Of a stretch of 64,000 nucleotides of DNA, positions 10,419-51,500 are shown piece after piece. This stretch comes from Eledone cirrhosa (Eukaryota), in assembly GCA_964016885.1 (NCBI GenBank), contig OZ024743.1, forward strand, positions 41,974,001 through 42,038,000. The letters are read 5' to 3'. A model generated the notes under the pieces. That model was not told where the DNA came from. It saw only the letters and a program-made list of their open reading frames with translations, and did not search any database. Each line of letters starts with the position of its first letter. The stretch's first letter is position 1. Position numbers and translations under genes: made by a program.

Positions 10419-10746
10419 ATGTGTGTGTGTGTGTGCGTGTGTGTGTGCGTGTGTGTGCGTGTGTATACATATGCATTTATAAATATATATATATATATAC
10501 ATATACATTTATAAACATATATATATGTATGTATATATAAATATATATATATTTATATATATATTGTTATACTTGGGGAGGGTCATATATATTTTTCAAC
10601 ATATGTATATTTATATATACATATGCATATATATATATATATAATTAATATAATAACAGAGATAGTTTATAGCTAAACTCTGACTGGTAACCATCTCACT
10701 CAAAAAAACATTAGTTTATATTAAAATATAAACCCAATTTAAGTGT

Positions 10747-11187
10747 TTGGGTACCTCCGTAAAAACACTTATTAGCAAGACACACCCGTTCCAAAGACCC
10801 TCATGTATAGATAAGAAATGTATAACGTGTAAAATAAGCCCCCATATTAACTGTAAAACTAGAAATGTAGTGTATAGCATAAGATGTACTGAGGGACAAT
10901 GTAGAAACAAAAATATAGTGTACATAGGTGAGACAGCTCGTAGTATAGGGGAACGAATAAATGAACACTGGCGAGACCTTCAACATAATAAAGAATCATC
11001 TGTGCTCTACCAACATGCTAAGATAGAACACAGGGGTAGATTAGAGAACATAGAAATAAAAATAGAATCCACACACAGAAAAGATGCAATGTTTAGGCAA
11101 ATTACAGAGGCAGAAAGCATAAAAGAATTACAACCAAAATTAAATAGAAAATATGAATGGAACAGCAACATCACAACTTACAATTAA
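10747..11187 (+). pseudogene. PLE GIY-YIG endonuclease C-terminal fragment
   Basis: CIDKKCITC...[13 protein letters not shown]...YIGETARS...R.NEH...RQITEA...PKLN, homologous to the C-terminus of the ORF at 36663-39545. Confidence 0.85.
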
Positions 11188-11417
11188 GGACAGAATGAAA
11201 ACACACACAGGACAAAATGAAAACACACACACACATAGAACAAACAACCAACCAACAATAAATAAATAAATAAATAAACAAATAAATAAACGAATATAAA
11301 CACACACAGACACCCGGATGTGGCGCATGCGCAAACTGAGCACACAACACACACACAGAAACAAAATGGCGTAGGATAGAAGATAGGAAAGGCACAGAAA
11401 CAAAGAAAGGAATCCCC

Positions 11418-11462
11418 AGTCACTGAAGAGGTCACAGAGTGTGTGACGAAAGGACTATGACT
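11418..11462 (+). ncRNA. Minimal type I hammerhead ribozyme in PLE 3'UTR
   Basis: AGUCA-CUGAAGA-G-GUCACA-GAGUG-UGUGAC-GAAA-GGAC-UA^UGACU: perfect stems I and II, minimal stem III. Confidence 0.85.
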
Positions 11463-11771
11463 ATATATAAACAACTATCTGGTTGTGGAACCAAACAACC
11501 AACCAGAAATTTATAAGTTTGTAGATTTGTAAATTTATAAATTTATAAATATATAATAAATTGAAGTGAAAGCAACTGGTGCGTGTCTTTCTTATTGGCA
11601 ACATGACACTCCCAAAGTATAACAATATCGGTTTCAACACACGATTTCAGATAAAAAAATCTTGCTAAACAAATTCACAAACGAAATATATATATATATA
11701 TATATGTATATGTATATATATATCCTTATCGACCCCTCTTTTGATTTTAGGCTACACATTTATTATTATCA

Positions 11772-18205: not shown

Positions 18206-18270
<65 letters not shown>

Positions 18271-18362
18271 AATTCCGTCGGAAAAGTCCAGGAAAAAAGA
18301 GTGCTCTATGTAAGCAACAGAGCTTAATTATTATTATGTAATAAACAACATAAGGCAATTAT

Positions 18363-18414
18363 TCCATTTACCAGTGGTTTCTTAAAAGCAGAATTTCTCA
18401 ATCCTCAGAACGAA
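18363..18414 (-). ncRNA. Type I hammerhead ribozyme (arm unit)
   Basis: UUCGUU-CUGAGGA-UUGAGA(AAUUCUGC)UUUUAA-GAAA-CCACUGG-UA^AAUGGA. Confidence 0.7.
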
Positions 18415-18549
18415 ACGATCCTGGTTTGTTTATTGAATTTGGATCTTAAAAACAAAAAAAGCAAGCTATATGAAAGTGAGGCTGGAGAAGGAAGAAGGAA
18501 AGGAAAAAATAAAAACAAAATAAGACTACCCATACAACCACACATACAC

Positions 18550-18610
<61 letters not shown>

Positions 18611-19018
18611 CACGCACACACACACACACACACACACGCATGTGTATGCGCGCACGCACGCACGCCTATACAAATATAAATATATTTCCACCATACACAT
18701 GTGTGTGCGTGCATGCGCGCATACGCGCAGGGTATGTTCTGTTGAAAGTGTCTCGTGAATTTATGGCTACAGTTGTATAGATTACACTTAGAAATTGTCC
18801 ACAGAATTCCCTAAACCTTGGTCAATATACTAGAACCTGTAAGAATCTAGCTTTTAAGGAATCTCCCCTTCCTCCAAATTATCTACCATGACTGACCCCA
18901 TACTGATCTTACAGACACCTGTAAGCTAAAGAGAAAGCCAATGATAAGGATTGGCTCCAATCTGAATACAGAAATCTGTCTGGCTTTGTTCCTCTAAGAA
19001 CAAACATATACAAACATT

Positions 19019-19059
<41 letters not shown>

Positions 19060-19096
19060 GCGCATACATATATATATATATATACATATACACACA

Positions 19097-19138
<42 letters not shown>

Positions 19139-19494
19139 CATATATACACACACACACACAAAATCACATATATATACGCACGAAATAGTCAACGCATTCA
19201 CACACTCTCACACATAAAAAAATTGTTCAAATACAAATACATAACCGCATACATACGCATACATGCATAACCACGCACAAGTGTACAATCTATACACACA
19301 CACATGTGTATACAACTATATGCACACACACACACATATGCATACATAAGCACACATATAATTACATAAATACAAACGTACACACACACATATATATATA
19401 CACACACGTACACATACACACACATATACATACATAGCTAAACAATTATACACATACAAATACGTATATATCATAAACACGCGCAACAGAACAC

Positions 19495-19536
<42 letters not shown>

Positions 19537-19831
19537 CACACACACACACACACACATATATACAATTATCAATATATACACACGCACATATGTACACACA
19601 CACATATATATACACACACACATATATACATACACATATATATATATATATATATACATATACATGCATATACACATATACACACATACACAACCACGCC
19701 CACACACATGCATACGCATACACACACGTATATGCGTGTGTGTATGTAAAGCTCAATCTTAGATAAACCATAAGGACCTTACATAACCGTATATATAGTA
19801 GTAAAGTATTAAAGCAACATAAGGCAATTAT

Positions 19832-19890
19832 TCCATTTACCAAGGGTTTCTTAAAAGCAAAACAAATGTTCCTACAATCTTCAGGATGAG
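19832..19890 (-). ncRNA. Hybrid hammerhead at the junction of PLE-B 3'UTR and arm unit
   Basis: CUCAUC-CUGAAGA-UUGUAGGAACAUUUG joined to UUUUGCUUUUAA-GAAA-CCCUUGG-UA^AAUGGA. Core intact, stems I and II imperfect. Confidence 0.6.
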
Positions 19891-20022
19891 AGAAACCTGG
19901 CTTATCCACACATACACATATATACACACACACACAAATACATACATATATAAATACATACACACAGGCACACACACACATACGTATAAACATATATACA
20001 TACACACATACACACACATATC

Positions 20023-20100
<78 letters not shown>

Positions 20101-20308
20101 TACATACACACAAATATACACACACATACACATAGGTATGTGGAGGGCAAGGCAAAAAGAATATATGTGGGGTCCGCATAGGAGAAGGTAAAATATAAGG
20201 GGAGGTAAGGGAGAACAAAAAATATAATAAATGTAGGTATACAAGAGTACAGAACGTAGAAACAGTAAAATAAAAACCGTAGCAGAAGTAAAGAGCGGGA
20301 GAAGGAGT

Positions 20309-22189
20309 TCAAGGCGGTTGGTTTCTCATAGGAGTGTCAATCCAGTTACAGATCAGGTACGGTCTCAGATGAGGACAGCATCTGAAGATCTCAGTCTTTG
20401 AATTAAGGCAAGCGGAAGTGTCTCTCAAGTTTAGCAAAATCCTATTCTTTTCTGTGGTACACAAAGAACAATTCTTTGTGCCCCTTTGGTACTCCCTCGA
20501 ATGGTCTAATATAGACCAATCAATAGAGTACGGGATGTTACTATCCTTGAGTTCCCACACCTTACTTGCGAGGGCCGTTGATGTTCGTTTATCGGAGTGC
20601 TTAAAAGAAGCGACATGTGAGTAAAATCTGGTTTTAAACCTGTCCTGGATCATACCGACATATCGCTCACTCCTGGCTGGCTGGTTGTTGATTACTGGTG
20701 TTATCGTAGCCTCATAAACGACAGATTTAGTGTTACATCTACCCTGCAATGGGCATTCGTCCGGCTTCCTGCAACTGCATCCTGGATTTATTCTCGTCCG
20801 GTTTGAGCTGGTGATTTTGGACTTCATAGATGGGCAACAAGAGTAGCTGATCTTGACTACGTTCCTATTAAATATCTTATAGTATCTATGATTAGGAGGA
20901 AAATGTTTGTCTAATAGTTCAAGGAATTTCCTTCCTACATTAGTTTTAACAGTTAGAGAGAAGGGGGGTGTGAACCAAATAATCTTCCTTTTCCTGTTAT
21001 TGTGGTTGGTTTTAGGGGGGGGGGGGAGTAGGTAAATAAGAAATGTTTTCTGTAAAACCGCTGTTCTTAAGGGCTTTATTATAATAAGGGGCGGCTTTAT
21101 TAAAAATGTCTATAGACGAAGATAAGGTAGAAATCCTACGGCTAATGTTAGGAATAAGATTATTAAAAACTATAGGAGGATGGCAAGACTCTTTGTGTAT
21201 ATACCTAAGATTTTCGTTAGGTTTATGGTAGTGTTTAAAAGAGGCAGTAAGTAAATCAAGATTAATATCAAGAAAGTTAGCATTAGTAAGATTCGTATCT
21301 ATAGTAATTTTAAGGTTAAGATTAGCAAAAGTATCGATTAAATCTTTACGGAATTTATCAAGGTCATGGCCGTTGGTGGTATGAGAAACTGCTAATCCGT
21401 CATCACGGTATAAACCGATATTATGGGACGGAAATTTCTCTTTGAGGGTGTGGAGAAGGAACAATCCAACTAAGTCACACACATCCGCACTGTCATATGA
21501 ACCCATTGCGACATCAAAAGAGTTTTCAGGGTTTGACTTTTTAACCCAAATATTATCATTAGTAAAAAGTAAAGTGTTTCTAGCATGGAGGATAATGTCT
21601 TCTTCTAATTTAGAAATATTAATGGAGGGTCTTGCAAAATCTAAGGCCTTAGTTAATAAGGAAACAGTAATAGAAGGGTAAAAATCGACAATATCAAACT
21701 GGGTAAATCTACACTTATTTTTACCTTGTATATTATTGAACCAAGAAATAACAGAGGAAGTATTTAGCCACTGTGATAGGTCAGTGTTAGTTCTGATTTG
21801 GAGAATTATTTTTCTTAAGATATTCTTACTTACAAGGCCAACCTCGGATTTAGCCGGGTTAATCAATCTACAACTAGGTCGATTAGTAAAGTCCAATGTA
21901 TGGTCTTTAAGGGTAATATATTCTTTACGCTTAGCTAAGCTTTCAATCCGGTTATCTATTTGTAAAGAACTAGCTAGTTCTTTAGCTTCTTTATTGATAG
22001 TATTGTAGGTATTATTATTAGTTAATTGATATTTATTGGTAATACTATTAGTTAAAAGTTGGTTATACAAAGTACTATTAACTTCAAAGAGGTTTTTAGT
22101 TTTATCAGAAAGAACGAAAGTGTTTGTAGAATTTCTAAAATTAGAAATATCGTTAGAAAGTTTGGTTTGAAAGTTATTATTGTAAATTT
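20309..22189 (-). pseudogene. PLE reverse transcriptase-GIY-YIG ORF, 5'-truncated, one frameshift in a G12 run (21015-21026)
   Basis: RT motifs LKDH...CRLINP, QFDIVDFYPSI, AMGSYDSADVCDLVG, GLYRDDGL, NFLD; linker IIWFTPPFS...CSCRKPDECPLQGRC; EN VVYEA...YVGM...FKTRFYSH. Confidence 0.9.
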
Positions 22190-22389
22190 TTTTGCTTTTA
22201 AGAAACCCTTGGTAAATGGAATAATTGCCTTATGTTGCTTTAATACTTTACTACTATATATACGGTTATGTAAGGTCCTTATGGTTTATCTAAGATTGAG
22301 CTTTACATACACACACGCATATACGTGTGTGTATGCGTATGCATGTGTGTGGGCGTGGTTGTGTATGTGTGTATATGTGTATATGCATG

Positions 22390-22456
<67 letters not shown>

Positions 22457-22531
22457 ATGTATATATGTGTGTGTGTGTATATATGTGTGTGTGTACATAT
22501 GTGCGTGTGTATATATTGATAATTGTATATG

Positions 22532-22564
<33 letters not shown>

Positions 22565-23019
22565 ATGTGTGTGTGTGTGTGTGTGTTTGTGTTCTGTTGT
22601 GCGTGTTTATGATATATACGTATTTGTATGTGTATAATTGTTTAGCTATGTATGTATATGTGTGTGTATGTGTACGTGTGTGTATATATATATGTGTGTG
22701 TGTACGTTTGTATTTATGTAATTATATGTGTGCTTATGTATGCATATATGTGTGTGTGTGCATATAGTTGTATACACATGTGTGTGTGTATAGATTGTAC
22801 ACTTGTGCGTGGTTATGCATGTATGCGTATGTATGCGGTTATGTATTTGTATTTGAACAATTTTTTTATGTGTGAGAGTGTGTGAATGCGTTGACTATTT
22901 CGTGCGTATGTATATGTGCTTTTGTGTGTGTGTATGTGTGAGTATATATGCATGTGTGTGTGTGTATGTGTGTGTGCGTATGTGTGTGTGTATATGTATA
23001 TATATATATATGTATGCGC

Positions 23020-23050
<31 letters not shown>

Positions 23051-23438
23051 TGTATGTATGAATGTTTGTATATGTTTGTTCTTAGAGGAACAAAGCCAGA
23101 CAGATTTCTGTATTCATATTGGAGCCAATCCTTATCATTGGCTTTCTCTTTAGCTTACAGGTGTCTGTAAGATCAGTATGGGGTCAGTCATGGTAGATAG
23201 ATTGGAGGAAGGGGAGATTCCTTAAAAGCTAAATTCTTAAAGGTTCTAGTATATTGACCAAGGTTTAGGGAATTCTGTGGACAATTTCTAAGTGTAATCT
23301 ATACAACTGTAGCCATAAATTCACGAGACACTTTCAACAGAACATACCCTGCGCGTATGCGCGCATGCACGCACACACATGTGTATGGTGGAAATATATT
23401 TATATTTGTATACGCGTGCGTGCGTGCGCGCATACACA

Positions 23439-23528
<90 letters not shown>

Positions 23529-23668
23529 TTTTCGTGTATGTGTGGTTGTATGGGTAGTCTTATTTCGTTTTTATTTTTTCCTTTCCTTCTTCCTTCCCCA
23601 GCCTCACTTTCATATAGCTTGCTTTTTTTGTTTTTAAGATCCAAATTCAATAAACAAACCAGGATTTG

Positions 23669-23726
23669 TTCGTTCTGAGGATTGAAAGCAACACCTTTTG
23701 CTTTTAAGAAACCACTGGTAAATGGA
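23669..23726 (+). ncRNA. Type I hammerhead ribozyme (arm unit), intact
   Basis: UUCGUU-CUGAGGA-UUGAAAGCAA(CACCUU)UUGCUUUUAA-GAAA-CCACUGG-UA^AAUGGA; 10-bp stem II. Confidence 0.8.
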
Positions 23727-23751
23727 ATAATTGCCTTATATTGTTTATTAC

Positions 23752-23833
<82 letters not shown>

Positions 23834-28404: not shown

Positions 28405-28407
<3 letters not shown>

Positions 28408-28598: not shown

Positions 28599-28661
<63 letters not shown>

Positions 28662-34563: not shown

Positions 34564-34628
<65 letters not shown>

Positions 34629-34742
34629 TTGTAATATAGTGAAACGAAATTTCATTTCTCACTCTTAGTACGGCACTTACTTAAATGTAAGTACGTATGT
34701 ATACGTACATACATATATGTATACAGACGTACAGTAGCATGC

Positions 34743-34785
<43 letters not shown>

Positions 34786-34943
34786 TATATACAGGTACAC
34801 ATATATATATATGTACGTATCAGTTTAGCGAACGTTTATTATAACGCCCGCTTTGTCCGTTTGTAAACAAGCGAACAGACTGATTTATGCCATACGGTGT
34901 TAAGGCAACCACGTCACCTTTTTATTCAACACTGACACAGAAA

Positions 34944-34984
34944 CGATGTACTAGTTTCAAGCTTGTTAGCTATCATCAGCACCG
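34944..34984 (-). ncRNA. Minimal type I hammerhead (family G), intact
   Basis: CGGUG-CUGAUGA-UAGCUAACAAGCUU-GAAA-CUAG-UA^CAUCG. Confidence 0.9.
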
Positions 34985-35220
34985 TATACCCTTCTGCCAG
35001 ATAGTTGAACGTTCGAAAGTATATACTTTCCCTATGAAAATTAATGGCTGAGCAGCCTAATTTGCATATCGAGTGAGTTCAGTCGGCCAGGCGTACCGAA
35101 AACGATAAGTTGTAATATAATGAAACGAAATTTCATTTCTCACTCTTAGTACGGCACTTACTTAAATGTAAGTATGTATGTATACGTACATACATATATG
35201 TATACAGACGTACAGTAGCA

Positions 35221-35310
<90 letters not shown>

Positions 35311-35476
35311 TATGTGAGTGAAAAATGAAATTTCGTTTCATTATATTATAACTTATCGTTTTCGGTACGCCTGGCCTACTGAACTCACTCGATAATCAAA
35401 TGAGGCTGCTCAGCCGTTAATTTTCATAAGGAAAGTATATACTTTCGAACGTTCAACTATCTGGCAGAAGGGTATA

Positions 35477-35517
35477 CGATGTTGATGATAGCTAACAAGC
35501 TTGAAACTAGTACATCG
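35477..35517 (+). ncRNA. Family G hammerhead with C3U change (UUGAUGA)
   Basis: CGAUG-UUGAUGA-UAGCUAACAAGCUU-GAAA-CUAG-UA^CAUCG. Confidence 0.75.
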
Positions 35518-35690
35518 TTCCTGTGTCATTGTTGAACGAAAAAAAAAAAAAAAAAAAAAGGTGACGTGGTTGCCTTAACACCGTATGGCATAAATCAGGC
35601 TGTTCGGTTGTTTACAAACGGACAAAGCGGGCGTTATAATAAACGTTCGCTAAACTGATACGTACATATATATATGTGTACCTGTATGTA

Positions 35691-35737
<47 letters not shown>

Positions 35738-35976
35738 GCATGCTACTGTACGTCTGTATACATATATGTATGTACGTATACATACAGACTTACATTTAAG
35801 TAAGTGCCGTACTAAGAGTGAGAAATAAAATTTCGTTTCATTATATTACAACTTATCGTTTTCGGTACGCCTGACCGACTGAACTCACTCGATATGCAAA
35901 TTATGCTGCTCAGCCGTTAATTTTCATAAGGAAAGTATACACTTTCGAACGTTCAACTATCTGGCAGAAGGGTATA

Positions 35977-36017
35977 CGGTGCTGATGATAGCTAACAAGC
36001 TTGAAACTAGTACATCG
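35977..36017 (+). ncRNA. Minimal type I hammerhead (family G), intact
   Basis: CGGUG-CUGAUGA-UAGCUAACAAGCUU-GAAA-CUAG-UA^CAUCG; predicted cut after 36012. Confidence 0.9.
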
Positions 36018-36179
36018 TTCCTGTGTCAGTGTTGAACAAAAAGGTGACGTGGTTGCCTTAAGACCGTATGGCATAAATCAGGCTGTTCGCTTGTTTACAA
36101 ACGGACAAAGCGGGCGTTATAATAAACGTTCGCTAAACAGATACGTACATATATATATGTGTACCTGTATGTATATATG

Positions 36180-36218
<39 letters not shown>

Positions 36219-36279
36219 GCATGCTACTGTACGTCTGTATACATATATGTATGTACGTATACATACATACTTACACATA

Positions 36280-36330
<51 letters not shown>

Positions 36331-36423
36331 GTTATTCCGGGTTGAATCGGAGGTAACCACAGTAAGTAAGGTACTCAATACATAGCAGAGTATAACAGTT
36401 TTAATATAGATGAGATTCTACAG

Positions 36424-36572: not shown

Positions 36573-36633
<61 letters not shown>

Positions 36634-36662
36634 TATTTGGGGAGGGTCATATTTGCGTAATA

Positions 36663-39545
36663 TTGCCAGAATTAATAACAGAACACACTCACTGTTTGGT
36701 TGGTTTTCGCTTCTCGCTGTCTTTTATATATATATATCTGCGATCTAACTTACTCGGTGATAATGGTAATAATACTAGCGATAGACAGAACAACAACAAC
36801 CACAATAATAATAATAATAGAAACGTTAACCACAGACACAGCAACAGTGACCACAGTAGTAATAACGGTAACAATACGAACAACAACAACAACAATAACC
36901 ACAGTGGTAATAATGGAAATAGTACATGTAGCAACATCAACAAAAACAAGAAACATAATAATAGTAACAACCACAATGGTAGAAATAGCAGTAACAACAA
37001 CAATAACGGTGAAGTAAACAACAATACATCTAGCAATCATAACAATAATAATATTAATGCTAAGGATAGAAACAACAACAACCACCATGATAACAATAAT
37101 AGCAACACACACAACTATGACGATAGAAATAACGACAACCCCTTAGAGAAACTATTTTTCAACCCAGCTGACAAAACATATAAGATGGGTAATATCTATC
37201 CTACGAGGTTACCCTTTAATAAAAGAGTTTGCATACCACAACAAATAGATGACGAGACGGAGGCACAGTTCACCATAGCTAGAAATAAGATTAGACAAGT
37301 AGTAGACAGGTACACTATGAGACAGAGCAGACCAGAGGCCCAACAACTTGGGATAAAACCTGTAGAAGGCTTGGTTAGCCTCAAGCAGCGCACAAGGGAT
37401 GGTGAGGTAGTGTGTCTACCCACAGATAAGTCTGGTAGGATGTCAATAGATAGCATGCCGAACTACATCGAGGCAATGCAACCCCACATCACCAACACGA
37501 GCGAAGTTGCACAACTAACACACGATGGGAGAGAAAAAATCCTCAACGCTCACATGATGATGTGGACTGACATCCTAAAGCCAAGCAGACGCACTGCCAA
37601 CAACTTCCAGGCGTCTAACAATGGCATACCACCCTTGTATGGGCTCCGCAAAGACCACAAGACAGTCGACGACCCGACAATAGGACCACCAACAAGACCT
37701 GTATGCGGAGCTAATATAGCTAGCAACTACAGGATCTCCTACTTCCTCTCAATGGTTATACGCCCCATAATCAAGATGTCCCCAGATGTATGTGAAAGTA
37801 CAGAGGACCTCCTCAGCAGAATCAGTGAGTGCAACAAAAACAGGAGCCTATCCAACTGCATAATAGGCAGCATGGATGTGGTGTCACTGTACCCATCCAT
37901 TAACATTGATTTTGCTGTGAAAAGATGTGTGGAGATGATCATTGAGAGTGAGGTGGAGTTCTGCGACGTCGACACAGACGAACTGGGCCTCCTACTTAGA
38001 CTTACCTACGACACTGACTACCTAGACAGCCATGACCTTAGATGTTTCTGCCCTAGTAGACCTATAAGAGGTAGACCCCCCACCATAACCTCAATGGCTA
38101 AAAAGACTCCCATAGGAAGGTGGATTGGGTGGACCAAAGCTATACGGACCCCCCAAAACACTGATCAGGTAAGAAAAATGGTCGCACATGCAATAGGGGC
38201 TAGTATCAAAACTACCCTAAAGGGCCACATATTTAAGTTCAATGAGAAAATCTACACCCAAAATGAGGGAGCAGCCATCGGCGTCAGCATAGCTGGCGAT
38301 GTTGCCAACCTTTTCATGGTATGGTGGGAAAGGAGACTTAAAGATCTCCTTAATGAAAGCTCCATAGACCTCATCATGTACTCTCGTTATGTAGACGATA
38401 TCAATATAGTTATAAGAACACCCCCACTAGAGAGCACTAACAAGTTTGATTTAGAACGTAGCACGATGGAAAGCATCCAGCAGATAGCTAATTCCATACA
38501 CCAGAGTATAACTGTAACTATAGACTTCCCTTCCAAACACCCTAACAATAGACTACCTGTATTAGACACAGAACTCTGGATTAACACTATAGACGAGAGA
38601 GCCCAAATTCTCCACTCACACTATGCTAAACCCATGGCCTCCAAATACCTGATACTCAAAAACTCAGCAATGTCCAGTAGTGCTAAGTTTAATATTCTGA
38701 TCGCAGATTTGGTACGAGTGATGAAGAATGTGTCCAGCATGTGCGACCCAACAGAAATGGAAGGACACATCCAACACTTCATCAACCGCATGCAGTTCTC
38801 TGGCTACAACCAAAGAGACAGAGTCAGAGTATACGAAGGAGCCATGGAAAAGTATAAGACCCTCATAGAACTGGACATGAAAGGAATTTGCCCACTATAC
38901 AGGAGCAAATCATGGAATAGCTTAGATAGGGCTAGACATAAGATAGGGAAGGCCACATCATGGTACGACAACCAGAGATATCAGAGTGTCATGTTTGTGG
39001 ACGCCACCCCTGGAGGGAAATTAGCTAACCAGTGTAGAAAGGCCCTGAGAAAGACCCACTTAAAAATAAAGGTGGTAGAAAAGCCAGGAACCACCATAAA
39101 ATCCCTGATCAGCAAAACCTACCCTTTTAAGAAAACCCACTGTACCAATAGGAAATGTATCATATGTAAGGTGAACCCCCGGATAAACTGTAAAACTAGA
39201 AACGTAGTCTATAGCATAAGATGTACAGAGGGTACTTGCAGAAACACGACAACAACATACATAGGTGAGACAGCTCGTAGCATAGGTGAAAGGATAGACC
39301 AACACTGGGGGGAACTAAAAGGACGAAAAAACGGGTCAGTACTATACGAACATGCTAGACAACATCATGACGGTAACATAGACAACATAGAAATTAGAAT
39401 AATATCTAAACATAGGAATGACCCAGCAGATAGGCAAATCAGAGAGGCCAGTGAAATAGAAATTAGAAGACCAAAGCTAAACAGAAAGAATGAGTGGAAC
39501 AACAACAACACCCAAACAAACAACACTGACCTAAGAGAAGTATAA
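36663..39545 (+). CDS. PLE polyprotein: Asn-rich region, reverse transcriptase, Cys linker, GIY-YIG endonuclease (true start uncertain; first ATG at 37185)
   Basis: LYGLRKDHK...[26 protein letters not shown]...[34 protein letters not shown]...YIGETARS...R.DQH...EASEI...PKLN. No stop codons. Confidence 0.92.
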
Positions 39546-39813
39546 ATAAATAAGTAAATTAAATAAAATAAAATAAGATAAATAAATACATACACAAGCA
39601 CATAAACACACACTAGTCACCCAGCAGACAACACTATACACACTAGTCACACATCACACATAACACTATACACACACGCAAACGCATGCGCAAAGAAGAC
39701 AAAATAAAATAAGATAAACAAACAAGCAAATAAATAAATAAATATATAGACAGACTGAACAAAAAAAAAATGGCGTAGACATACAACACAACAGGAGGAA
39801 CAATGAATATAAC

Positions 39814-39855
39814 ACCACTGACGATGTTGCAGATGTGCAACGAAAGATTTATGTA
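39814..39855 (+). ncRNA. Hammerhead motif in PLE-A 3'UTR (core and stem II intact, stem I weak)
   Basis: ACCA-CUGACGA-U-GUUGCA-GAUG-UGCAAC-GAAA-GAUU-UA^UGUA; same position as 11418-11462. Copies at 41174-41215 (-) and 42485-42526 (+). Confidence 0.7.
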
Positions 39856-40120
39856 AACTATATATATATGTGTTTGTCTATATTGTATCTGTATTATTTT
39901 TGACCGCCGGTCAGTCAATGGCAACATTGAGGACCGAGTAAGTTAGATCGCAGATATATATATATAAAAGACAGCGAGAAGCGAAAACCAACCAAACAGT
40001 GAGTGTGTTCTGTTATTAATTCTGGCAATATTACGCAAATATGACCCTCCCCAAATATAACAATATCTGTTTCGACACACGATTTCATATAAAAAACCTC
40101 GCAAAACTAATTCATCGCCG

Positions 40121-40154
<34 letters not shown>

Positions 40155-40158
<4 letters not shown>

Positions 40159-40300
40159 GATATTAAACAAATGGAAATTACAAATTGAAATTACAAATGT
40201 AAATTAATATCGTAAAATACTCCAAAATCTGTTGAGTGCTTTTATATCAGTTATAAAATATTTACTCGTTGTAACCCAACATTTTAAATAAAACTTTTGC
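40155..40300 (+). repeat. Family D 3' fragment
   Basis: Reverse-complement similarity to about 31335-31445. Confidence 0.7.
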
Positions 40301-40449: not shown

Positions 40450-40875
40450 CAAAGGGGATATTGAATTTGTTGGTAATTCATTCAACAAATATAAATGTTT
40501 ATAACTGTTTCAAAGAACTCGACATGTTTTCTGGAGTATAATATTCAATAATATTAAATAAATGGAAACTATATTTATAAAACCACATTTATTCTATTAT
40601 ATATTTCAAGGGTACCAAAACATTGGTACGCCCGAATCAGATAAAATGCGTTTGTTTCATAGATATTGACATAACCAGAAAAAAAAACCTTAACGTTTAA
40701 GACTATCCAGAAAAACTTGAACCCATAAGGTATTTTTTTTCTGGTTATTATCAGTATTTATGAAACAAACTTTGTATTTTATCTGATTAGAGCGTACCAA
40801 AGTTTTGGTACCCTTCAAATATATATACTAGAATAAATATGGTTCTATAAATATAGTTGCCATTTATTTAATATC

Positions 40876-40884
<9 letters not shown>
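40450..40884. mobile_element. Family D divergent inverted pair with degenerate HHRs (40591-40647 minus, 40776-40834 plus)
   Basis: Inverted repeat 40541-40690 / 40728-40884. Cores are CUGAUUC...GAAA and CUGAUUA...CAAA around stem II GUACCA/UGGUAC. Confidence 0.65.
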
Positions 40885-40920
<36 letters not shown>

Positions 40921-40921
<1 letters not shown>

Positions 40922-42737
40922 GTTTTGCGAGGTTTTTTATATGAAATCGTGTGTCGAAACAGATATTGTTATATTTGGGGAGGGTCATATTTGCGTAATA
41001 TTGCCAGAATTAATAACAGAACACACTCACTGTTTGGTTGGTTTTCGCTTCTCGCTGTCTTTTATATATATATATCTGCGATCTAACTTACTCGGTCCTC
41101 AATGTTGCCATTGACTGACCGGCGGTCAAAAATAATACAGATACAATATAGACAAACACATATATATATAGTTTACATAAATCTTTCGTTGCACATCTGC
41201 AACATCGTCAGTGGTGTTATATTCATTGTTCCTCCTGTTGTGTTGTATGTCTACGCCATTTTTTTTTGTTCAGTCTGTCTATATATTTATTTATTTATTT
41301 GCTTGTTTGTTTATCTTATTTTATTTTGTCTTCTTTGCGCATGCGTTTGCGTGTGTGTATAGTGTTATGTGTGATGTGTGACTAGTGTGTATCGTGTTGT
41401 GTCTGCTGGGTGACTAGTGTGTGTTTATGTGCTTGTGTATGTATTTATTTATCTTATTTTATTTAATTTAATTTACTTATTTATTTATACTTCTCTTAGG
41501 TCAGTGTTGTTTGTTTGGGTGTTGTTGTTGTTCCACTCATTCTTTCTGTTTAGCTTTGGTTTTCTAATTTCTATTTCACTGGCCTCTCTGATTTGCCTAT
41601 CTGCTGGGTCATTCCTATGTTTAGATATTATTCTAATTTCTATGTTGTCTATGTTACCGTCATGATGTTGTCTAGCATGTTCGTATAGTACTGACCCGTT
41701 TTTTCGTCCTTTTAGTTCCCCCCAGTGTTGGTCTATCCTTTCACCTATGCTACGAGCTGTCTCACCTATGTATGTTGTTGTCGTGTTTCTGCAAGTACCC
41801 TCTGTACATCTTATGCTATAGACTACGTTTCTAGTTTTACAGTTTATCCCGGATAAACTGTAAAACTAGAAACGTAGTCTATAGCATAAGATGTACAGAG
41901 GGTACTTGCAGAAACACGACAACAACATACATAGGTGAGACAGCTCGTAGCATAGGTGAAAGGATAGACCAACACTGGGGGGAACTAAAAGGACGAAAAA
42001 ACGGGTCAGTACTATACGAACATGCTAGACAACATCATGACGGTAACATAGACAACATAGAAATTAGAATAATATCTAAACATAGGAATGACCCAGCAGA
42101 TAGGCAAATCAGAGAGGCCAGTGAAATAGAAATTAGAAAACCAAAGCTAAACAGAAAGAATGAGTGGAACAACAACAACACCCAAACAAACAACACTGAC
42201 CTAAGAGAAGTATAAATAAATAAGTAAATTAAATTAAATAAAATAAGATAAATAAATACATACACAAGCACATAAACACACACTAGTCACCCAGCAGACA
42301 CAACACGATACACACTAGTCACACATCACACATAACACTATACACACACGCAAACGCATGCGCAAAGAAGACAAAATAAAATAAGATAAACAAACAAGCA
42401 AATAAATAAATAAATATATAGACAGACTGAACAAAAAAAAATGGCGTAGACATACAACACAACAGGAGGAACAATGAATATAACACCACTGACGATGTTG
42501 CAGATGTGCAACGAAAGATTTATGTAAACTATATATATATGTGTTTGTCTATATTGTATCTGTATTATTTTTGACCGCCGGTCAGTCAATGGCAACATTG
42601 AGGACCGAGTAAGTTAGATCGCAGATATATATATATAAAAGACAGCGAGAAGCGAAAACCAACCAAACAGTGAGTGTGTTCTGTTATTAATTCTGGCAAT
42701 ATTACGCAAATATGACCCTCCCCAAATATAACAATAT
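40921..42737. mobile_element. Palindromic PLE-A insertion: two 887-bp 3' ends joined 5'-to-5'
   Basis: 40963-41849 is the reverse complement of 41851-42737 with a 1-nt centre at 41850. Both arms match 39181-40067. The left arm has an extra 42-bp tail. Confidence 0.95.
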
Positions 42738-43054
42738 ATATATATATATGTATATATATATATTTACATATACATATATGCATATATACATCATAATATT
42801 GTTAATACAATTCGCTGTAAATCTACTGCTATTACTTTATTATACATACACACATTCATAAATTTACACAGACACACACGCACACACGCACACACCTAGA
42901 CATACGTACGTGTGTATATAAATATTTATGTATATATACGCATACATTTTATAAGGTTCAAATAGATAGATAATAGATTTCTGATTTCCGGTGTTTCGTA
43001 ATTTAATTATATTTATTTGATCGAATTGATATATGTGTGATTGTTTAATGTTTA

Positions 43055-43294: not shown

Positions 43295-44322
43295 GTGTGT
43301 GTGTGTGTGTACACATATACATATGGGTGTAGGTATGTATATTAATGTACACGTATTAATAACCTTACTCTCAGTTCTAAAATTCTTTCTTTTGTATTCC
43401 TTCCTCATTCATGGTTTGTTTCCTTCTATTATAAATATATTTCATGGAAAAAAATTATATTATAAAAGATAAATGGAAAACTATGATATAAACTATATTT
43501 TTAGTGAGAACCAACATTGTTAAGTGTACTTAAAATAAAATTTAATTTTGTGGTTGAGTGGTTCCATAAAATAGATTTTGTTTGCTGATGTTTACGATAA
43601 GAAATAACTACAAAGAGGAGAATTATCTAATTTTTACTGACTTTTATTTCCAATCGAACAGATGTGCAGCTAAATATATTCACCTCATTGTTGGAGTGAA
43701 TGGGAACACAAAATAAATGAGAAAATACAAAAGGAAATTCATTCTGGCGTAGAACAGTAAAACGTTTAAGCGAGTAAACGTTTATAATTTTAAAAATAAA
43801 CAACTTTATAAGCACTCACACTATTAATTTGTAAAAAACTAGAAATGGTGGGATGTTCTTTTGAATACATGTTATATTATTTACTTATTCATTTATAGTT
43901 TCCCATGTTTAACTGACAAGACTCCGGTCATATTAGTGTACTGCCTTCTATGAATGGTTTATCAGTCATTTTCACCCAGGCACGGATCTCAGACTGGTAT
44001 TCTTTTATCATAATTTATACGACAAATTGCATCGTCACTCGTTTGAAATAAGTGAACAGAACACCATTTTACCCAGGTACATATGATCGACTAAACAGAC
44101 ATATGCTTTCACTTTCAATTCGAAGATTTTTTTACGTTTCTTCCTGCTCATGATCTCGTTTATATGTCTATCACTTCTTTTTATCTTTCATTCTTTCTCA
44201 CGAGGAAACGTAGACAACCAAGTTACTAAGAAACCTCTCCTAGCATATCAAGCGGTAACCTAATATGTATCTTCCTTGTATTGTTCCCATATGTTGTTTT
44301 GTCACAGATGGGCAAGGCAAGG

Positions 44323-44510
44323 TAATAATTGTTTCTACATTTGGCACAAGGCCAGCAAATATTTCAGTGTATTACTGGTACTTTATTTTATCGAACCCGT
44401 AAGTATGAAAGACAAAGTTAACCTCGGCGGGATTTGAAATTAGAATGGCAAGGGCCGTAATTTTTTGCTGCAAATCATGGCGCCCGACCCTCTACCGATA
44501 TTGCCAATCC
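44323..44510 (-). mobile_element. tRNA-derived SINE (same family as 1596)
   Basis: Reverse complement of the full unit including the A-box-like head. Confidence 0.85.
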
Positions 44511-44544
44511 AAATATCAGAAACACACACACACATCCACATACA

Positions 44545-44585
<41 letters not shown>

Positions 44586-44589
44586 CGAT

Positions 44590-45410
44590 TTAGAGAGCGT
44601 AACTTTGTCCTAATATTGCCAGATAGAATAGTAAAACACACTCACTGTTTGGTTTGGTTTACGCTTCAGTATATTTTTTTCATATTTCTATAAATAATTT
44701 AATTGACAATGAATGATAAACATTCATTCACCAAGAGTTAAAGCCATAAATAGAAATATAGTTTCTCAAAGTACTTTCGTCACACATACCTGTGATATCT
44801 TTAGCGATTATCATGTTTCCGTGTTTGTATGCTCATGCGTCGTGTCTGAGTCTGCGTATGTTTACGTGCTTACATTCTAACTTTGTGTATTTATATGTGA
44901 TTGTTGTTATTGCATTTGTGTATATTTATATTCTCAGATCACTCGCCTGTGTTTCTTTGTGGTTACTGATATTCCATTCATGCTTTCTGTTCAGCATAGG
45001 TTTTCTTAATTCTATTTCTGTAGCCTCCCTAATATGTTTAATTGCCGAGTTATTCCTGTTTAGATATTATTTTAAGTTCTATGTTGTCTATTTTAACAGC
45101 CATGTTTTTGTGTGTTCATATAGAACTGAATCGTAATTTCGTCATTTTAGTTCACTCCAGTGTTCATCTACTCTCTCATGTATGCTACGGCCTGTCTCTC
45201 CTATGTATGTCATTGACATGAATCTGCAGGGACTCTCTGTAAATCCTAGTCTATAGACTACATTTCTAGTTTTACAATTAATTTGTGAACTTACTCAACA
45301 TAGTACACATGGCTTATTTTCACAGCGGGTTTTCTTAAAGGTTTAAGTTTTACTGATCAGGTATTTTATATTAGTTCCTGGCTTTTCTACCACTTAAATA
45401 TTTTAATTAG
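44590..45410 (-). mobile_element. Older 5'-truncated PLE-A relative with decayed HHR (44765-44809)
   Basis: Minus strand [13 protein letters not shown]...TYIGETGRS; CUAAAGA-UA-UCACA..UGUGA-C-GAAA-GUAC-UU; tail ACACACTCACTGTTTGGTT shared with family A. Confidence 0.8.
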
Positions 45411-47164
45411 TTTTACTTATTTATTTATCTTTGGCATGTGTACGTAAACCTCATCAGGCAGACCATCCAGACAAGGCGATGTACTCATCGTACATTTAAC
45501 GATTTCCCCACGTACTTCAGTTTACCGAAATTCCTTTCTGCGCTAAATCTATTCCTGCCGTTCCCTATTTGTATCAATAAACCTTTATATATAGGATATA
45601 AATGTTTTAGGGATATAAATATATTCGCCATATTTGCTTCAGGGAGATGAATGTGGTAATCAAATAATTTGTCACTATTATTTCGTTTGTGTATTGATGC
45701 TTTGTATTACTAAAATAATTGTCAATATTGATCATTATATCAACATTGAAATATATCATACAAATCCTTATTCTTTATATATTTTTTATTATCTCTTTCT
45801 AAGACGTATGCAAATCATATATACTTCAATTATACTGATATTGCCCAAATATTTCCAAACTGGACACTTTCATCTCAAAGGCGCATTGAATTAGATTACA
45901 CCCATTCGCGAAGTTAAGATTGCTACAGCAGGGTATAGTTAGTAGATGAATTCTGAAATATATCACGATCAATATATGGCATCAATGATATATAGAATAC
46001 TATATTGATTTATTGATTCTTATTCTGACAATTTGACATTTGGAAGGAGCTATTTCGAACTACTTAGGATTTGCGCAAAATTTTATTTTTCCCTCCTTGT
46101 AAACAAGGAGGATACATTATATAAATATATATATGTGTGTGTATATGTGTATGCGTGTGTTTGTGTGTGTATGTGTGTATGTATGTGTGTGTGTGTATAT
46201 GTGTATGTATGTATGCGTGTGTGTGTGAGTATATATATACATATGTAACTGATATTATAGTTCAGTTTTATTTCAGTTATGATATAAAGCGCATTGAATG
46301 AGATACCGAGGGAATATTGCATTGTACAAATGTATAATAAAATAGAAGGTACTATATATTAAGAATCTGCTGAATTGAATTTCATGAGACTTATTATATT
46401 TGAACATGCTTCATTTTTTTTTCACTTTGTTAGAGGATTACATTTCTCTGTTATATGCCGTATGTAATTTCATTGAATATATAGCATGAATTATTTCGCG
46501 TGTGAATAATTCCCTTGCTATTCACTGCCATGCGATTATTTTAACATTATAACTCAGTGACAAGGGATATACTATATATTCCATGTTTATTCGCTTTTTA
46601 TTGTTTTATAGGAACGAAATTAATGGCAAATAACATACGTATTTAGTCCATACTAGGTTTACTTTAATAATATGTGTCAACGGAAAAGTCACGATGGAAT
46701 ATTTCTCCCATAAAAATGACTCAAACATTAGATATATTCACAATAGTTGATGTATTGTATTCTTCCGTATCACATATACAAGAAGAATACAACAAATATC
46801 ACTCTTGTGTATCATTCGTAAAGAAAGTTTATGGAATCACAAAAGTAATTTTCACTGGTCGAAAGCTTTTGACGGATTTATTAAAAATCGTTATATAATG
46901 AGAGACTGAAATATCATTGTTTGGCAATTTGAAGCTTTATAGTAACATTTTATAAAAGTGTTACGTAAACAAATATTTCCATGGTACAGATATTTATTCA
47001 AATCGGACAGCATCCAATGTATACATAACCTTACACACATAACACTATGCCGGAGAGAAATACTATCTAGATAGTCCTACAAAGATAATTTCAACATCTA
47101 TCTACCTATCTAGTTATCTGTCTCCTTCTCTTTCTCTCTCTCCCTATATATATATATATATCAT

Positions 47165-48533: not shown

Positions 48534-51500
48534 CTAGCTGAAGTACCCGGCGTTGCTCGGGTGTATGTCGACCTTTGCTCTGTTGTTAAAAGGTATGAAA
48601 GTTACTTCCCGCGTATCACAGGTGCAAAAACCTTCGAACCTCATGGAAAAAAACAGAGGTTAGTAGACGCTGGTGTGTAATTGAGCATACATAATGGATC
48701 AATTGTAGGTTCACAGTTTATCGTTGAAATTGTTCTTTGCACGTCTGACGGAAGGCAAATTCACTTGAAATTGAATTTTCAGTTGATTTTTAAAGCAGGG
48801 TGAAATGTCGATTTTTTCATAGTTTTTTTTTTTTTTTACAAGTTCGCGCTTACATGTGCAGAAGAAGAAATAATGGGGACAGTATCTGAACCGCGGCATA
48901 ATGGCGAGTCTTTTGCTACAGTTTTCAAGATAATCGGACGTTCCTGTAAAATATTTTCCCATGTGCAACTTTACCTTGTTTTTTGTGCAAAGTCGAACCC
49001 CCGCTTCAGTTTCATTGATTTTTTATATGAATGCTAATATCCTGTCCCGGTAAATTTGCTATAGGTGAAAAAAAGTTGTCTAGGTTTATTGCCCTTTGCA
49101 ACAGCCTCAACGTGTCTTCAAGTATGGTTTGTTAATTTGTTGTGGAACTAAATCGACTTTCGTCCAATCGGACCGAGGAAACAATGTTTCCATTTGTCTT
49201 TCTAGCTGGTGTACCCGATTATACTCGGAGTTATAAGGCACTGGATTTAAACGGGTCTGCGCTAAATTTCAGCAGGTTGCTTTAACCGAAATAAATGAAT
49301 AACAAACGTTTCTTTTTGTGCTCCAATCTGTGATATTGGTATTTTGAAAAAATAGTCCACAAACATCCATGGAGCATGTGTAACGCATGTATCAGGTTAT
49401 GAGAAAAAGGATTTTCGATTCTCCATTCATAAGATACCAACAAATTGAACGCAAATAAACAGGGATTTTAAGGCACTGCCCAATTCATAGCTGAATAATG
49501 TTTTGCGACATTGTCAAATGTGCAACCGTACACAAGCAAAGAATGTGGTGGGGTTGTATATCAGAGGATTGTTTTCCTTTTGATTCGCGTCTAGCCTACA
49601 AAGTAAAGTTAGATGATTGTAGTCGGTGTTGTATCAATAAAAAAAAATAAAAGCACACGGAAGACTGAACACTTACGAATTAAGTGAAAATCACGTTGAT
49701 ATTCCTATCGGGGCAACATGTGCCGCAAAACCGGACTGTTGTGTCAATATTGAAATCGTAGAAATTGAGAATCCCGTCCTCTAAGATGTAATGGATAGGC
49801 CTTGGAGGTGAAGAGGAAGAATTGGTACAATTGTTTTGCTGAACAAGTTGACCATTAATTTAAATAGACTTACGCAGCATCATCGTGCGGTTTTGTTTAT
49901 GGCCTAGAATGAGGGCCGGTGAAACGCGGCAGAAAAATAAGCCATGCTGATGATATTTAGGGGAGTCACAGGGAATAGATACAGCGTTGTGAGTCAATCG
50001 TGAGGACAGTGGAAGGCACGCTGATCGCTTGAAAAGACGCAATGCTACACAGGATGCTTCTCGGCCATAATTGACAGAAAGGCATGTCAGAAGAAATGAA
50101 AGAGTTGCTATTCATCCTTTGCTTAGCATGATGAACATGTAATTAAAAAGATTTACCATGGCTATCGTGCACGTTGGTATTGTGTTTAGCCTACGAAAAT
50201 CGGTGCTCAAATGGGGCAACAAAAAGCCATGCTGATGACGTTTAAGCGGATGGCAAGGAATTGATGCGGCATAGATAGCCATGGGAGTCTTGAAGGGTAC
50301 GGCGGTCGGGCAAAAGAAAGGGCCGAGGAGGGGATGGTGGCTGACAGTGCATGGATGCGGCATCATGAAGCATGACGATGCAGTGGGACGACGGCCCGCA
50401 GGCAAGGAAGAGGGCAGGGGTTGATGGTGGTAGGGATGTGACTTGTATTCTCAAGATTGCCATGCCTAGGCAGTGGAAAGAGTCGGGGTGTGGATGGCGG
50501 CTGACAGGGCAGGGATGCAACATGATGAGGCATGACGAAAGGGCAGGATCCATGGCGGCTGACAGGGCGTGGATGCGGCATGCCAATTGAGTTGCACCTC
50601 GGGAATGTAGAGAGCACCGGGTGGCACGATGATTGTTTGAGAAAACAGGGTGCAAGGCAGGATGTTTATCTGGCATACATGATCGGTAGGCTTTGGAGGA
50701 GAAAGGGATGAATTTTTGTTTAATTTTGTTAAATATGGTCAAAATGAATGTAAAAAGACTTACACAGGATCGCCTTCATGTTCGGTGCTGTCTTTGGTCT
50801 GAGATAATGGGCAGTTATGTGCGGCGCAGGAATAAACCATGCTGATGACATTTGAGCAAGTTGCTGTCAGGGCAGGAATGGTGAACCATGGCAGTCGTGA
50901 GGGACCAAGGCGTGCGGGAAAAAGATAGAGCATGGGTTAACGGTGGGAGGGATGCGGCATTGTTAGGCATGGCAGTCTTGAAGGGGCACGGCGGGCAGTC
51001 AAAATAAAGGGCTGAGGAGGGTATGGCGGCTGACAGATCATGGATGCGGCATGGTGAGGCATAACGATGCAGTGGGTCGACAGCGTGCAGGGAAGGGAGG
51101 TGGCCGAGATTGACGGTTGCAGTGATTCCGCATGGTGAGCCATGGCACTCGTGAAGCAACAAGGCGTGCGGGTAAGGGAGAGAGCAGGGGAGGGCACGGC
51201 GGCTGACAGAGCATGGATGCGGCATGTTGAGGCATGACGATGCAGTGGGACGACGGCGTGCAGGGAATGGAGAGGGAAAGACTTGATGGTGGCAGGGATG
51301 CGGCTTGGTTAGGCATGGCAGACTTGAAGGAGCACGGCGGGCATACAAAAGAAAGGGCTGAGGAGGGGATGGTGGCCGACAGGGTTGTAATGCGCCATGG
51401 TGATGCATGACGATGCAGTGGGACGACGCCGTGCAGGGAAGGGAAAGGACAGGGGTTGACGGGGGCAGGGATGCGGCTTGGTCAGGCATGGAAGTCTTGA

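What the first reader, a model, noticed from the sequence alone, without database searches (positions are those of the whole stretch)
40921..42737. Perfect 1.77-kb palindrome of PLE 3' ends with a 1-nt centre
Seen: 887-bp arms mirrored around C41850 (TTTATCC-C-GGATAAA). Both arms share variants absent from the neighbouring full element (AGAAAACC vs AGAAGACC, AAATTAAAT vs AAATAAAAT, A9 vs A10). The outer ends are asymmetric by 42 bp. Inference: one event in which cDNA snapped back at CCCGG and copied itself, from a sister element rather than the adjacent copy. Such palindromes are usually unstable, implying a recent insertion and a potential long dsRNA source.
Basis: partly seen in the sequence, partly recalled or inferred. 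Interest (0 to 1): 0.7.

Follow-up and report, generated by a model that had tools for sequence, protein, structure and literature searches.

The report
Head-to-head Penelope retrotransposon palindrome
Two identical 0.9-kb end pieces of a Penelope-like retrotransposon sit head to head as a perfect palindrome, an extreme form of a layout these elements often make, and its ends hint that both DNA strands were primed during one insertion.

Summary
The palindrome is in the sequence: 887-nt arms, 887/887 identical, around C41850. The arms are the 3' 0.9 kb of a Neptune/Nematis-type Penelope-like element (PLE), inserted in (TA)n; the best protein hit is from Octopus vulgaris (68%). Head-to-head inverted copies with a 'tail' at one end are documented PLE anatomy (PMC3846280, PMC8557442), and two other insertions in this window show it. 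The 42–43-nt asymmetry is that tail. What is unusual is the missing spacer. Simple cDNA snap-back fits poorly: the centre C belongs to the shorter arm, which cannot template the extra 43 nt, and a 2-bp stem with a 1-nt loop cannot fold. Best model (0.5): both target strands were primed at the two known PLE start sites on one RNA, and the cDNAs joined over a 2-nt CC/GG match. That argument rests on one base, which only long reads can fix. Non-mirrored flanks and recurrent end points argue against an artefact (about 0.1). Recent origin is supported; dsRNA is plausible, untested and already described for Penelope. Mostly known biology; modest mechanistic interest.

The parts
40920..40962 (-). PLE 'tail' present only at the left end (43 nt; continues the short ORF start carried in the pLTR to about codon 23)
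   Evidence: Exact match to neighbour up to 40109; codon conservation with the old copy; tails described in PMC3846280, PMC8557442, PMC11167929
40963..41849 (-). Left arm: 5'-truncated antisense copy (GIY-YIG endonuclease coding end, 3' UTR, pLTR; ATG at 40988)
41850..41850 (+). Centre base C; matches the element's sense base (neighbour 39180, first base of an Arg codon), colinear with the right arm
   Evidence: C at the aligned position in the old copy near 10.8 kb
41848..41849 (.). 2-nt microhomology (CC) that belongs to both arms; junction at the natural quasi-palindrome CC-C-GG
   Evidence: register test
41851..42737 (+). Right arm: 5'-truncated sense copy, colinear with neighbour 39178-40066 from 41848; endonuclease coding end to stop at 42215; pLTR ATG at 42712; ends at the proximal (tail-less) site, ATG+26
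42489..42522 (+). Minimal hammerhead-like motif in the pLTR (CTGACGA, 6-bp helix II, GAAA); mirrored at 41178-41211 on the minus strand
   Evidence: 2 compensatory pairs among 3 copies but 53/500 shuffles as high; no hammerhead among 83 Rfam matches: suggestive only
40881..40919 (.). Left (TA)n target
   Evidence: a 9-11-nt TA overlap could be a TSD but cannot be told from the microsatellite
42738..42765 (.). Right (TA)n-type target; flank does not mirror the left flank
   Evidence: no non-simple mirror match in 500-bp flanks
36631..36758 (-). Neighbour insertion: inverted 128-bp pLTR cap, outer end at proximal site (ATG+21)
   Evidence: 128/128 identical to 39933-40060; end mapped
36759..40121 (+). 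Neighbour insertion: 5'-truncated PLE body with open RT-linker-GIY-YIG frame to 39545, pLTR with ATG at 40041, full tail to ATG+81
10696..11684 (+). Older relative (about 71% DNA identity in the coding part); ends at the same distal site (ATG+81)
   Evidence: Pfam GIY-YIG E 3.2e-5
10561..10588 (-). 28-bp end fragment of the family in (TA)n, ending at ATG+26 like the right arm
44580..45420 (-). Older decayed relative (about 75%), 3' end near the proximal site (approximate)
18266..23753 (-). Unrelated PLE with Hydra-type motifs and the same layout: 1.56-kb inverted arm at the 5' side, about 64-66-nt tail only on the sense end

Best explanation
A real, young PLE insertion made in one event by two-sided target priming. 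The GIY-YIG endonuclease nicked both strands of a (TA)n tract. The bottom strand primed reverse transcription at the proximal start site in the pLTR (right arm, ATG+26), the top strand within the tail (left arm, ATG+69). Both copied the same RNA, or two RNAs with the same 5' end near CCCGG. The bottom cDNA ran to that end; the top cDNA stopped 3 nt short, paired its terminal CC with the terminal GG of the bottom cDNA, and each strand was filled in on the other. The common head-to-head PLE insertion (long copy plus short inverted cap, as at 36.6 kb and 22-23.7 kb) is the same reaction with an early jump; this is the limiting case with no spacer. The insert cannot encode RT. Its only likely activity is as an 887-bp hairpin if a transcript crosses it, most plausibly one begun in the neighbour's pLTR about 0.9 kb upstream, which points into it. 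Shown: anatomy, end positions, polarity of the centre. From the literature: both-strand nicking and extension, two start sites. Inferred: the shared RNA end, the jump, any transcription.
For: Both outer ends fall in recurrent end classes: of 7 family ends in the window, 3 are in the tail class (+81, +81, +69) and 4 at the proximal site (+21, +26, +26, about +26 degraded), all next to (TA)n. A purified PLE protein cleaves and extends both target strands, starts at two sites that bound the tail with no strand difference, and is predicted to dimerise (PMC11167929). The modelled product matches 1818/1818 nt, against 1 mismatch at 41850 for left-primed snap-back and 43 missing nt for right-primed snap-back. 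Arm identity with 5 shared variants fits one template. Two other head-to-head insertions here have non-palindromic junctions, so joining does not need a hairpin.
Against: The fit is by construction: the stop and jump points were chosen to fit. Two independent cDNAs would end within 5 nt of each other only about 0.3-1.2% of the time, so a shared RNA end must be assumed, and no reason for an end or pause at 39178 was found (a fold of the region shows no hairpin starting there). Two run-off cDNAs would pair better in the 4-bp CCGG register (-6.4 against -4.1 kcal/mol), which would give no centre base. The case against fold-back hangs on one base that reads confined to the arms cannot orient (888 nt to the nearest asymmetric base). 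The left end (+69) is 12 nt short of the other two tail ends. The in vitro data come from another clade (Poseidon). In the two other insertions the tail is on the long arm, which fold-back explains equally well.
Confidence: 0.5

Rival explanations
1. Fold-back or self-priming (first reader; PMC3846280 proposes self-priming on an antisense template). Either a cDNA primed at the left end folded back near CCCGG and copied itself, with the centre base later changed or miscalled; or a free self-primed hairpin was trimmed at the proximal site by the endonuclease and then integrated.
For: Explains at once why both 5' ends coincide and the arms are identical. Left-primed fold-back reproduces 1817 of 1818 nt. 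The centre base can flip in short-read polishing. PMC3846280 reads junction palindromes as self-priming; PMC8557442 ascribes tails to endonuclease-mediated resolution.
Against: Predicts G at 41850; C is the sense base in the neighbour and in the old copy near 10.8 kb. No stable 3'-terminal hairpin at this point (best +2.7 to +2.8 kcal/mol). Yeast fold-backs use 5-9-bp repeats with 3-12-nt spacers, and loops at perfect centres need 4-6 bases (PMC7999016). Later in vitro work ties the tail to two RT start sites rather than trimming.
Confidence: 0.27
2. Secondary origin: an ordinary spaced head-to-head insertion lost its spacer afterwards by a microhomology-mediated centre deletion, or the palindrome was retrotransposed whole from an earlier palindromic copy.
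For: Spaced versions exist next door. The junction has a 2-nt microhomology. Microhomology-mediated deletions in Penelope copies are reported (PMC3846280).
Against: A deletion has no reason to land within 3 nt of symmetry, and loss of spacer makes a repeat less stable (PMC7999016). Arms show no divergence, leaving little time. Copying a master only moves the question back.
Confidence: 0.12
3. Sequencing or assembly artefact: a fold-back or amplification chimera joined two separate young copies through their identical 887 nt, or polishing homogenised the arms.
For: The family has near-identical young copies (99.3%). Tandem/inverted PLE structures are known to trouble assemblies (PMC8557442). 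No reads were available.
Against: Flanks are not mirrored, and each end stops at a PLE end class in (TA)n. Five of the six other inverted repeats aligned keep 10-36 substitutions, so arms are not homogenised in general; the sixth, the neighbour's 128-bp cap, is identical. The arms were not pulled to the neighbour's alleles. Ligation at a CCGG site would leave no extra base.
Confidence: 0.11

Closest known systems
Head-to-head inverted PLE insertions with a one-sided tail (Adineta Pen2/Pen2a, PMC3846280; general scheme in PMC8557442 Fig. 2 legend)
   Same: Inverted 5'-truncated copy joined at the 5' end; tail at one end only; pLTR carries the first codons of the ORF (12 aa, 22 with tail in Pen2a; here 9 and 23-27); palindromes at the junction; AT-rich targets.
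   Different: Palindromes given in the passages read are 18 and 38 bp and inverted pLTRs about 180-210 bp. Here the whole insert is the palindrome: 887-bp arms reaching into the endonuclease coding region, 1-nt centre. Tail span here is up to 55-60 nt against 30-40.
Anolis Poseidon PAc in vitro system (PMC11167929)
   Same: Two RT start sites bounding the tail; AT-rich targets; both strands nicked and extended, which is what this insertion's two ends look like.
   Different: Different clade (no CX2-5CxxC linker). In the parts read (1 and 2 of 4) the paper does not address how inverted insertions are joined.
Rearranged Penelope copies with long inverted repeats in transformed Drosophila melanogaster (PMC3681739)
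   Same: PLE inverted repeats as a dsRNA source; siRNAs matched the inverted regions.
   Different: There small RNAs were measured; here no expression data.
LINE-1 twin priming (recalled, not read here; one search gave only listings)
   Same: Both target strands prime on one RNA and cDNAs join by microhomology.
   Different: L1 twin priming gives non-overlapping inverted segments, the second primed internally; here both primers start near the 3' end, so the same segment is copied twice.
Mu killer of maize (PMC3440606, abstract start only)
   Same: Inverted duplication of part of a transposon that could give a hairpin RNA by read-through and silence the family.
   Different: DNA transposon, plant, function shown; here only a possibility.

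Membership tests
EN+ PLE, Neptune/Nematis type | RT with DKG-like motif and YxDD | tested here: met
   TDKS, D..LY and YVDD conserved in 46-47 of 47 aligned homologues (46 of 120 listed hits of 950 aa or more plus P0002). Pfam RVT_1 only E 3e-4, below cut-off.
EN+ PLE, Neptune/Nematis type | C-terminal GIY-YIG endonuclease with CCHH motif | tested here: met
   Both Cys, both His, Y, G, R, E, N conserved in 46-47 of 47. Pfam GIY-YIG scored on the old relative (E 3.2e-5) but not on P0001.
EN+ PLE, Neptune/Nematis type | CX2-5CxxC linker between RT and EN | tested here: met
   C-X4-C-X2-C at P0001 856-864, conserved in 46-47 of 47; definition from PMC8557442.
EN+ PLE, Neptune/Nematis type | pLTR that includes the ORF start | tested here: met
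   27 codons from ATG 40041 against the old copy: 8 synonymous, 5 non-synonymous, third-position excess p=0.009 (last 9 codons compared across one extra A). The match to homologue N-termini was not significant (641/1000 shuffles as high).
EN+ PLE, Neptune/Nematis type | Hammerhead ribozyme in the pLTR | tested here: inconclusive
   Core boxes and helix II in 3 copies, 2 compensatory pairs, 53/500 shuffles as high; no Rfam hammerhead match.
EN+ PLE, Neptune/Nematis type | Insertion bias for (TA)n | tested here: met
   7 of 7 outer ends abut (TA)n.
Neptune versus Nematis clade | Placement in an RT phylogeny with named references | not tested
   No named reference sequences were on hand; hits are unnamed or 'hypothetical'.
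Head-to-head inverted PLE insertion | Inverted 5'-truncated copy joined at the 5' end | tested here: met
Head-to-head inverted PLE insertion | Tail at one end only | tested here: met
   43 nt on the left end only
Head-to-head inverted PLE insertion | Target-site duplication | tested here: inconclusive
   9-11-nt TA overlap, indistinguishable from the microsatellite
Single-strand snap-back palindrome | Foldable terminal hairpin at the centre | tested here: not met
   2-bp stem with 1-nt loop; nearest allowed fold +2.8 kcal/mol
Single-strand snap-back palindrome | Copied arm no longer than the arm colinear with the loop | tested here: not met
   Copied arm is 43 nt longer; depends on the centre base being called correctly
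Fold-back read artefact | Mirror symmetry continues into flanks or ends at arbitrary points | tested here: not met
Fold-back read artefact | Absent from independent spanning reads | not testable with these tools
   No reads or eukaryotic genome collection available
Hairpin silencing trigger (Mu killer-like) | Transcript crossing the centre and siRNAs from the arms | not testable with these tools
   No expression data; no credible host-gene domain among 148 of 192 ORFs scanned

The most novel reading that the evidence does not exclude
PLE inverted insertions arise because a dimeric RT-endonuclease primes both target strands on one RNA and the second cDNA jumps onto the displaced end of the first. 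When both reach the RNA's 5' end the product is a kilobase perfect palindrome, so the element builds its own hairpin silencer. This locus would be such a product, transcribed from the neighbouring pLTR into an 887-bp dsRNA that covers the endonuclease end and pLTR shared by all young copies.
Probability: 0.15. Interest if true: 0.6.

Novelty: new variant of a known kind. Interest (0 to 1): 0.32.

Why it matters
How PLEs form their inverted repeats is still open: PMC8557442 names it as a task, and PMC11167929 leaves the steps after first-strand synthesis unvalidated. Zero-spacer cases are informative because the centre base and the side that carries the tail together tell two-sided priming from fold-back. 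That test can be run genome-wide on long-read assemblies. A long perfect palindrome is also a likely fragile site (PMC7999016) and a candidate source of family-wide siRNA. The locus alone does not show a new system: the layout, the tail and siRNA from PLE inverted repeats are all in print.

Tried and rejected
Inverted triplication (neighbour, left arm, right arm as direct-inverted-direct DNA copies): rejected, because the three ends differ (+81, +69, +26), the tail is absent from the right arm and its flank, and 5 variants separate neighbour from arms. Restriction-ligation at CCGG: would leave no centre base. Special centre sequence: 2-1-2 quasi-palindromes are common (191 in 3364 nt, 23 GC-only), so CCCGG is not a rare signal. 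Source variant with G at the centre: the aligned old copy near 10.8 kb has C; in the copy near 45 kb the local alignment did not reach that base; Octopus P0002 has Gln at the aligned residue by eye, and one search shows varied residues in distant homologues. Rfam: 83 matches, none at gathering score, no hammerhead. N-terminal peptide against homologues: not significant. Search for close relatives of the endonuclease end: 0 of 13 candidates passed. Host genes: 148 of 192 complex ORFs scanned, only TE-type domains and three weak below-cut-off hits; short exons would be missed; no tRNA. Literature searches for a kilobase perfect PLE palindrome or a two-sided priming model: 2 papers; 11 listed of 12; 25 listed of 26; 3; 0. 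None turned up in the listings or passages read; older subscription papers and all figures and supplements were not seen, so absence from print is not established.

Full report
Observation. The palindrome is as described. Arms 40963-41849 and 41851-42737 are 887 nt and fully complementary around C41850. Nothing else like it occurs in the window: the next non-AT palindrome with a spacer of 10 nt or less has 31-nt arms. The arms match the 3' end of the element at 36759-40121 at 99.3%. They differ from it at 5 places (3 substitutions, a 2-nt insertion, one A fewer), all shared by both arms. The left end reaches 42-43 nt further into the element.

What the element is. The neighbour holds a 989-codon open frame. 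Its best hit is an Octopus vulgaris protein, 68% identical over 89% of the query; the next hits are 42-48%. With the TA/CA-rich sequence this suggests an octopus host, which is inference. The DKS, YVDD, CX4CxxC linker and CCHH GIY-YIG residues are conserved in 46-47 of 47 aligned homologues. By the definitions in PMC8557442 (passages) that is a C-terminal-endonuclease PLE of Neptune/Nematis type; the clade was not tested by phylogeny. The 3' repeat carries the ORF start: 27 codons from ATG 40041 differ from an old copy by 8 synonymous and 5 non-synonymous changes, as in Adineta Pen2a (PMC3846280, section 6). A match of this peptide to homologue N-termini was not significant. A minimal hammerhead-like motif lies in the pLTR, with weak support (minimal PLE hammerheads in PMC4209133, passages). 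The neighbour is not full-length: it lacks the start, and has 150 residues before the PFNK anchor against a median of 264 (range 109-431) in 46 long homologues.

The layout is ordinary for PLEs. PMC8557442 describes an inverted 5'-truncated copy next to the 5' end and a 30-40-bp tail often at one end only; PMC8969392 says the same in brief (passages). PMC3846280 calls head-to-head the most frequent inverted form and notes palindromes at the junction (section 11). The window shows the layout twice more. The neighbour has a 128-bp inverted cap identical to its own pLTR. An unrelated PLE with Hydra-type motifs at 18266-23753 has a 1.56-kb inverted arm and a tail of about 65 nt on the sense end only. 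The seven outer ends of the first family fall in two classes relative to the pLTR ATG: +21, +26, +26 and about +26 (degraded), and +69, +81, +81. The two +81 ends coincide to the base in copies about 30% apart in coding sequence. PMC11167929 (parts 1 and 2 of 4 read; supplements not opened) shows that a purified PLE protein nicks and extends both strands and starts at two sites that bound the tail. So the 42-43-nt asymmetry is the tail, and the right end is a normal end, not a later deletion. The left end is 12 nt short of the other tail ends.

The centre. The element's own sequence here is CC-C-GG (39178-39182). The right arm is colinear with it from 41848 and includes the centre C; the left arm is colinear from 41849 down; CC at 41848-41849 belongs to both. 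The arms' 5' ends therefore lie within 1-5 nt of each other on the element. Three models were built from window slices and compared with the 1818-nt insert. Fold-back from the left arm gives the right length but G at 41850. Fold-back from the right arm gives the right centre but lacks the 43-nt tail, since a copy cannot be longer than its template. Priming from both sides with a jump over CC/GG gives no mismatch, though its stop point was chosen to fit. Folding also disfavours snap-back: no stable 3'-terminal hairpin exists at this point (+2.7 to +2.8 kcal/mol), and yeast fold-backs use 5-9-bp repeats with 3-12-nt spacers (PMC7999016, passages). Against the two-sided model: independent cDNAs would end this close only about 0.3-1.2% of the time, so one RNA, or one RNA 5' end, must be assumed; no cause for such an end was seen; and a 4-bp CCGG register would pair better. 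Because the palindrome equals its own reverse complement except at the centre, reads that do not reach an asymmetric base 888 nt away cannot tell C from G. The argument is only as good as the assembly's long reads. I put two-sided priming at 0.5, fold-back or self-priming at 0.27, secondary origin at 0.12 and artefact at 0.11.

Artefact. The 500-bp flanks do not mirror each other, and both ends stop at PLE end classes in (TA)n, which a fold-back read has no reason to do. Five of six other inverted repeats aligned keep 10-36 substitutions, so arms are not generally homogenised; the sixth is the neighbour's short cap. A misjoin of two identical young copies cannot be excluded without reads. A TSD cannot be read in the microsatellite.

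Age and source. Zero differences in 887 nt bound arm divergence at 0.34% (95%). At the rate implied by 'JC 0.09 = 25 My' for octopus (PMC13282606, passages) that is under about 0.5 My, if the host is an octopus and the arms were not converted. That paper counts 336 recently active PLE insertions in O. vulgaris, so young PLEs are expected there. At 39469 the old copy near 45 kb shares the arms' allele, so the neighbour carries a derived base there. This fits a sister source but also a common master. Two young copies 0.8 kb apart may be more than chance; I could not test it.

Function. The insert lacks RT and cannot move itself. Its own pLTRs point outward. A transcript across the centre would fold into an 887-bp hairpin. 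The nearest candidate promoter is the neighbour's pLTR, which points into it (a pLTR promoter is called likely in PMC11167929); it would converge with the left arm's pLTR. No host exon was detected (148 of 192 ORFs scanned). siRNAs from inverted Penelope copies are already reported in Drosophila (PMC3681739, passages), and Mu killer is the functional analogue (PMC3440606, abstract start only). None of this was testable here.

Novelty. The kind is known. The variant, kilobase arms with a 1-nt centre and the tail on the arm not colinear with the junction, did not appear in the listings and passages; bioRxiv 10.64898/2026.07.22.740005 (passages) had nothing on it. Older subscription papers, figures and supplements were not seen. 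The comparison with L1 twin priming is recalled. Interest 0.32: an extreme case of documented anatomy that suggests a cheap genome-wide test of how PLE inverted repeats form.

Noticed in passing
window 18266-23753 (minus strand): Second PLE family with Hydra-type motifs (DKT, CxCX5C linker, CxxC, CxH); ORF split at a C12 run near 21015-21026; 1.56-kb inverted arm with 36 substitutions and 12 gaps; tail of about 65 nt on the sense end, longer than the 30-40 nt in the papers read. Clade call rests on motifs only.
   Followed up: partly
window 40041-40121 and 11603-11684: Distal 3' ends of a young and an old copy fall on the same base, after codon 27 of the ORF start, so the distal RT start site looks conserved across about 30% divergence.
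   Followed up: partly
window 36759 and protein P0002: The neighbour is truncated inside an Asn-rich coding stretch; the O. vulgaris homologue also begins with a TA-like then Asn/Ser-rich stretch, which may mark a common truncation zone.
   Followed up: no
window 39938 and 39999: Splice-donor-like hexamers in the pLTR upstream of the ATG; the second is conserved in the old copy near 44650. The neighbour's inverted cap ends 5 nt from the first. PLE pLTR introns are known.
   Followed up: no
window 40537-40889 and 40157-40185: Old MITE-like inverted repeat (84% self-complementary) between the two young insertions; both PLE ends sit in (TA)n next to similar TIR-like sequence.
   Followed up: no
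window 2300-5330 and 63088-64000: PIF1 helicase and STPR domain fragments, probably a decayed Helitron, with an 87-89% second copy at the window end.
   Followed up: no
window 34560-36340, 15540-16260, 28400-28690: Nested inverted-repeat elements of one family (85-97% arms), probably MITEs.
   Followed up: no
window 50240-52200 and 61000-63000: GC-rich minisatellite-like arrays with strong strand skew.
   Followed up: no
window 1589-1783, 8100-8250, 24400-25000, 26270-26375, 44318-44515: Dispersed 130-200-bp repeat, 80-90% alike, SINE-like; ARAGORN found no tRNA.
   Followed up: no
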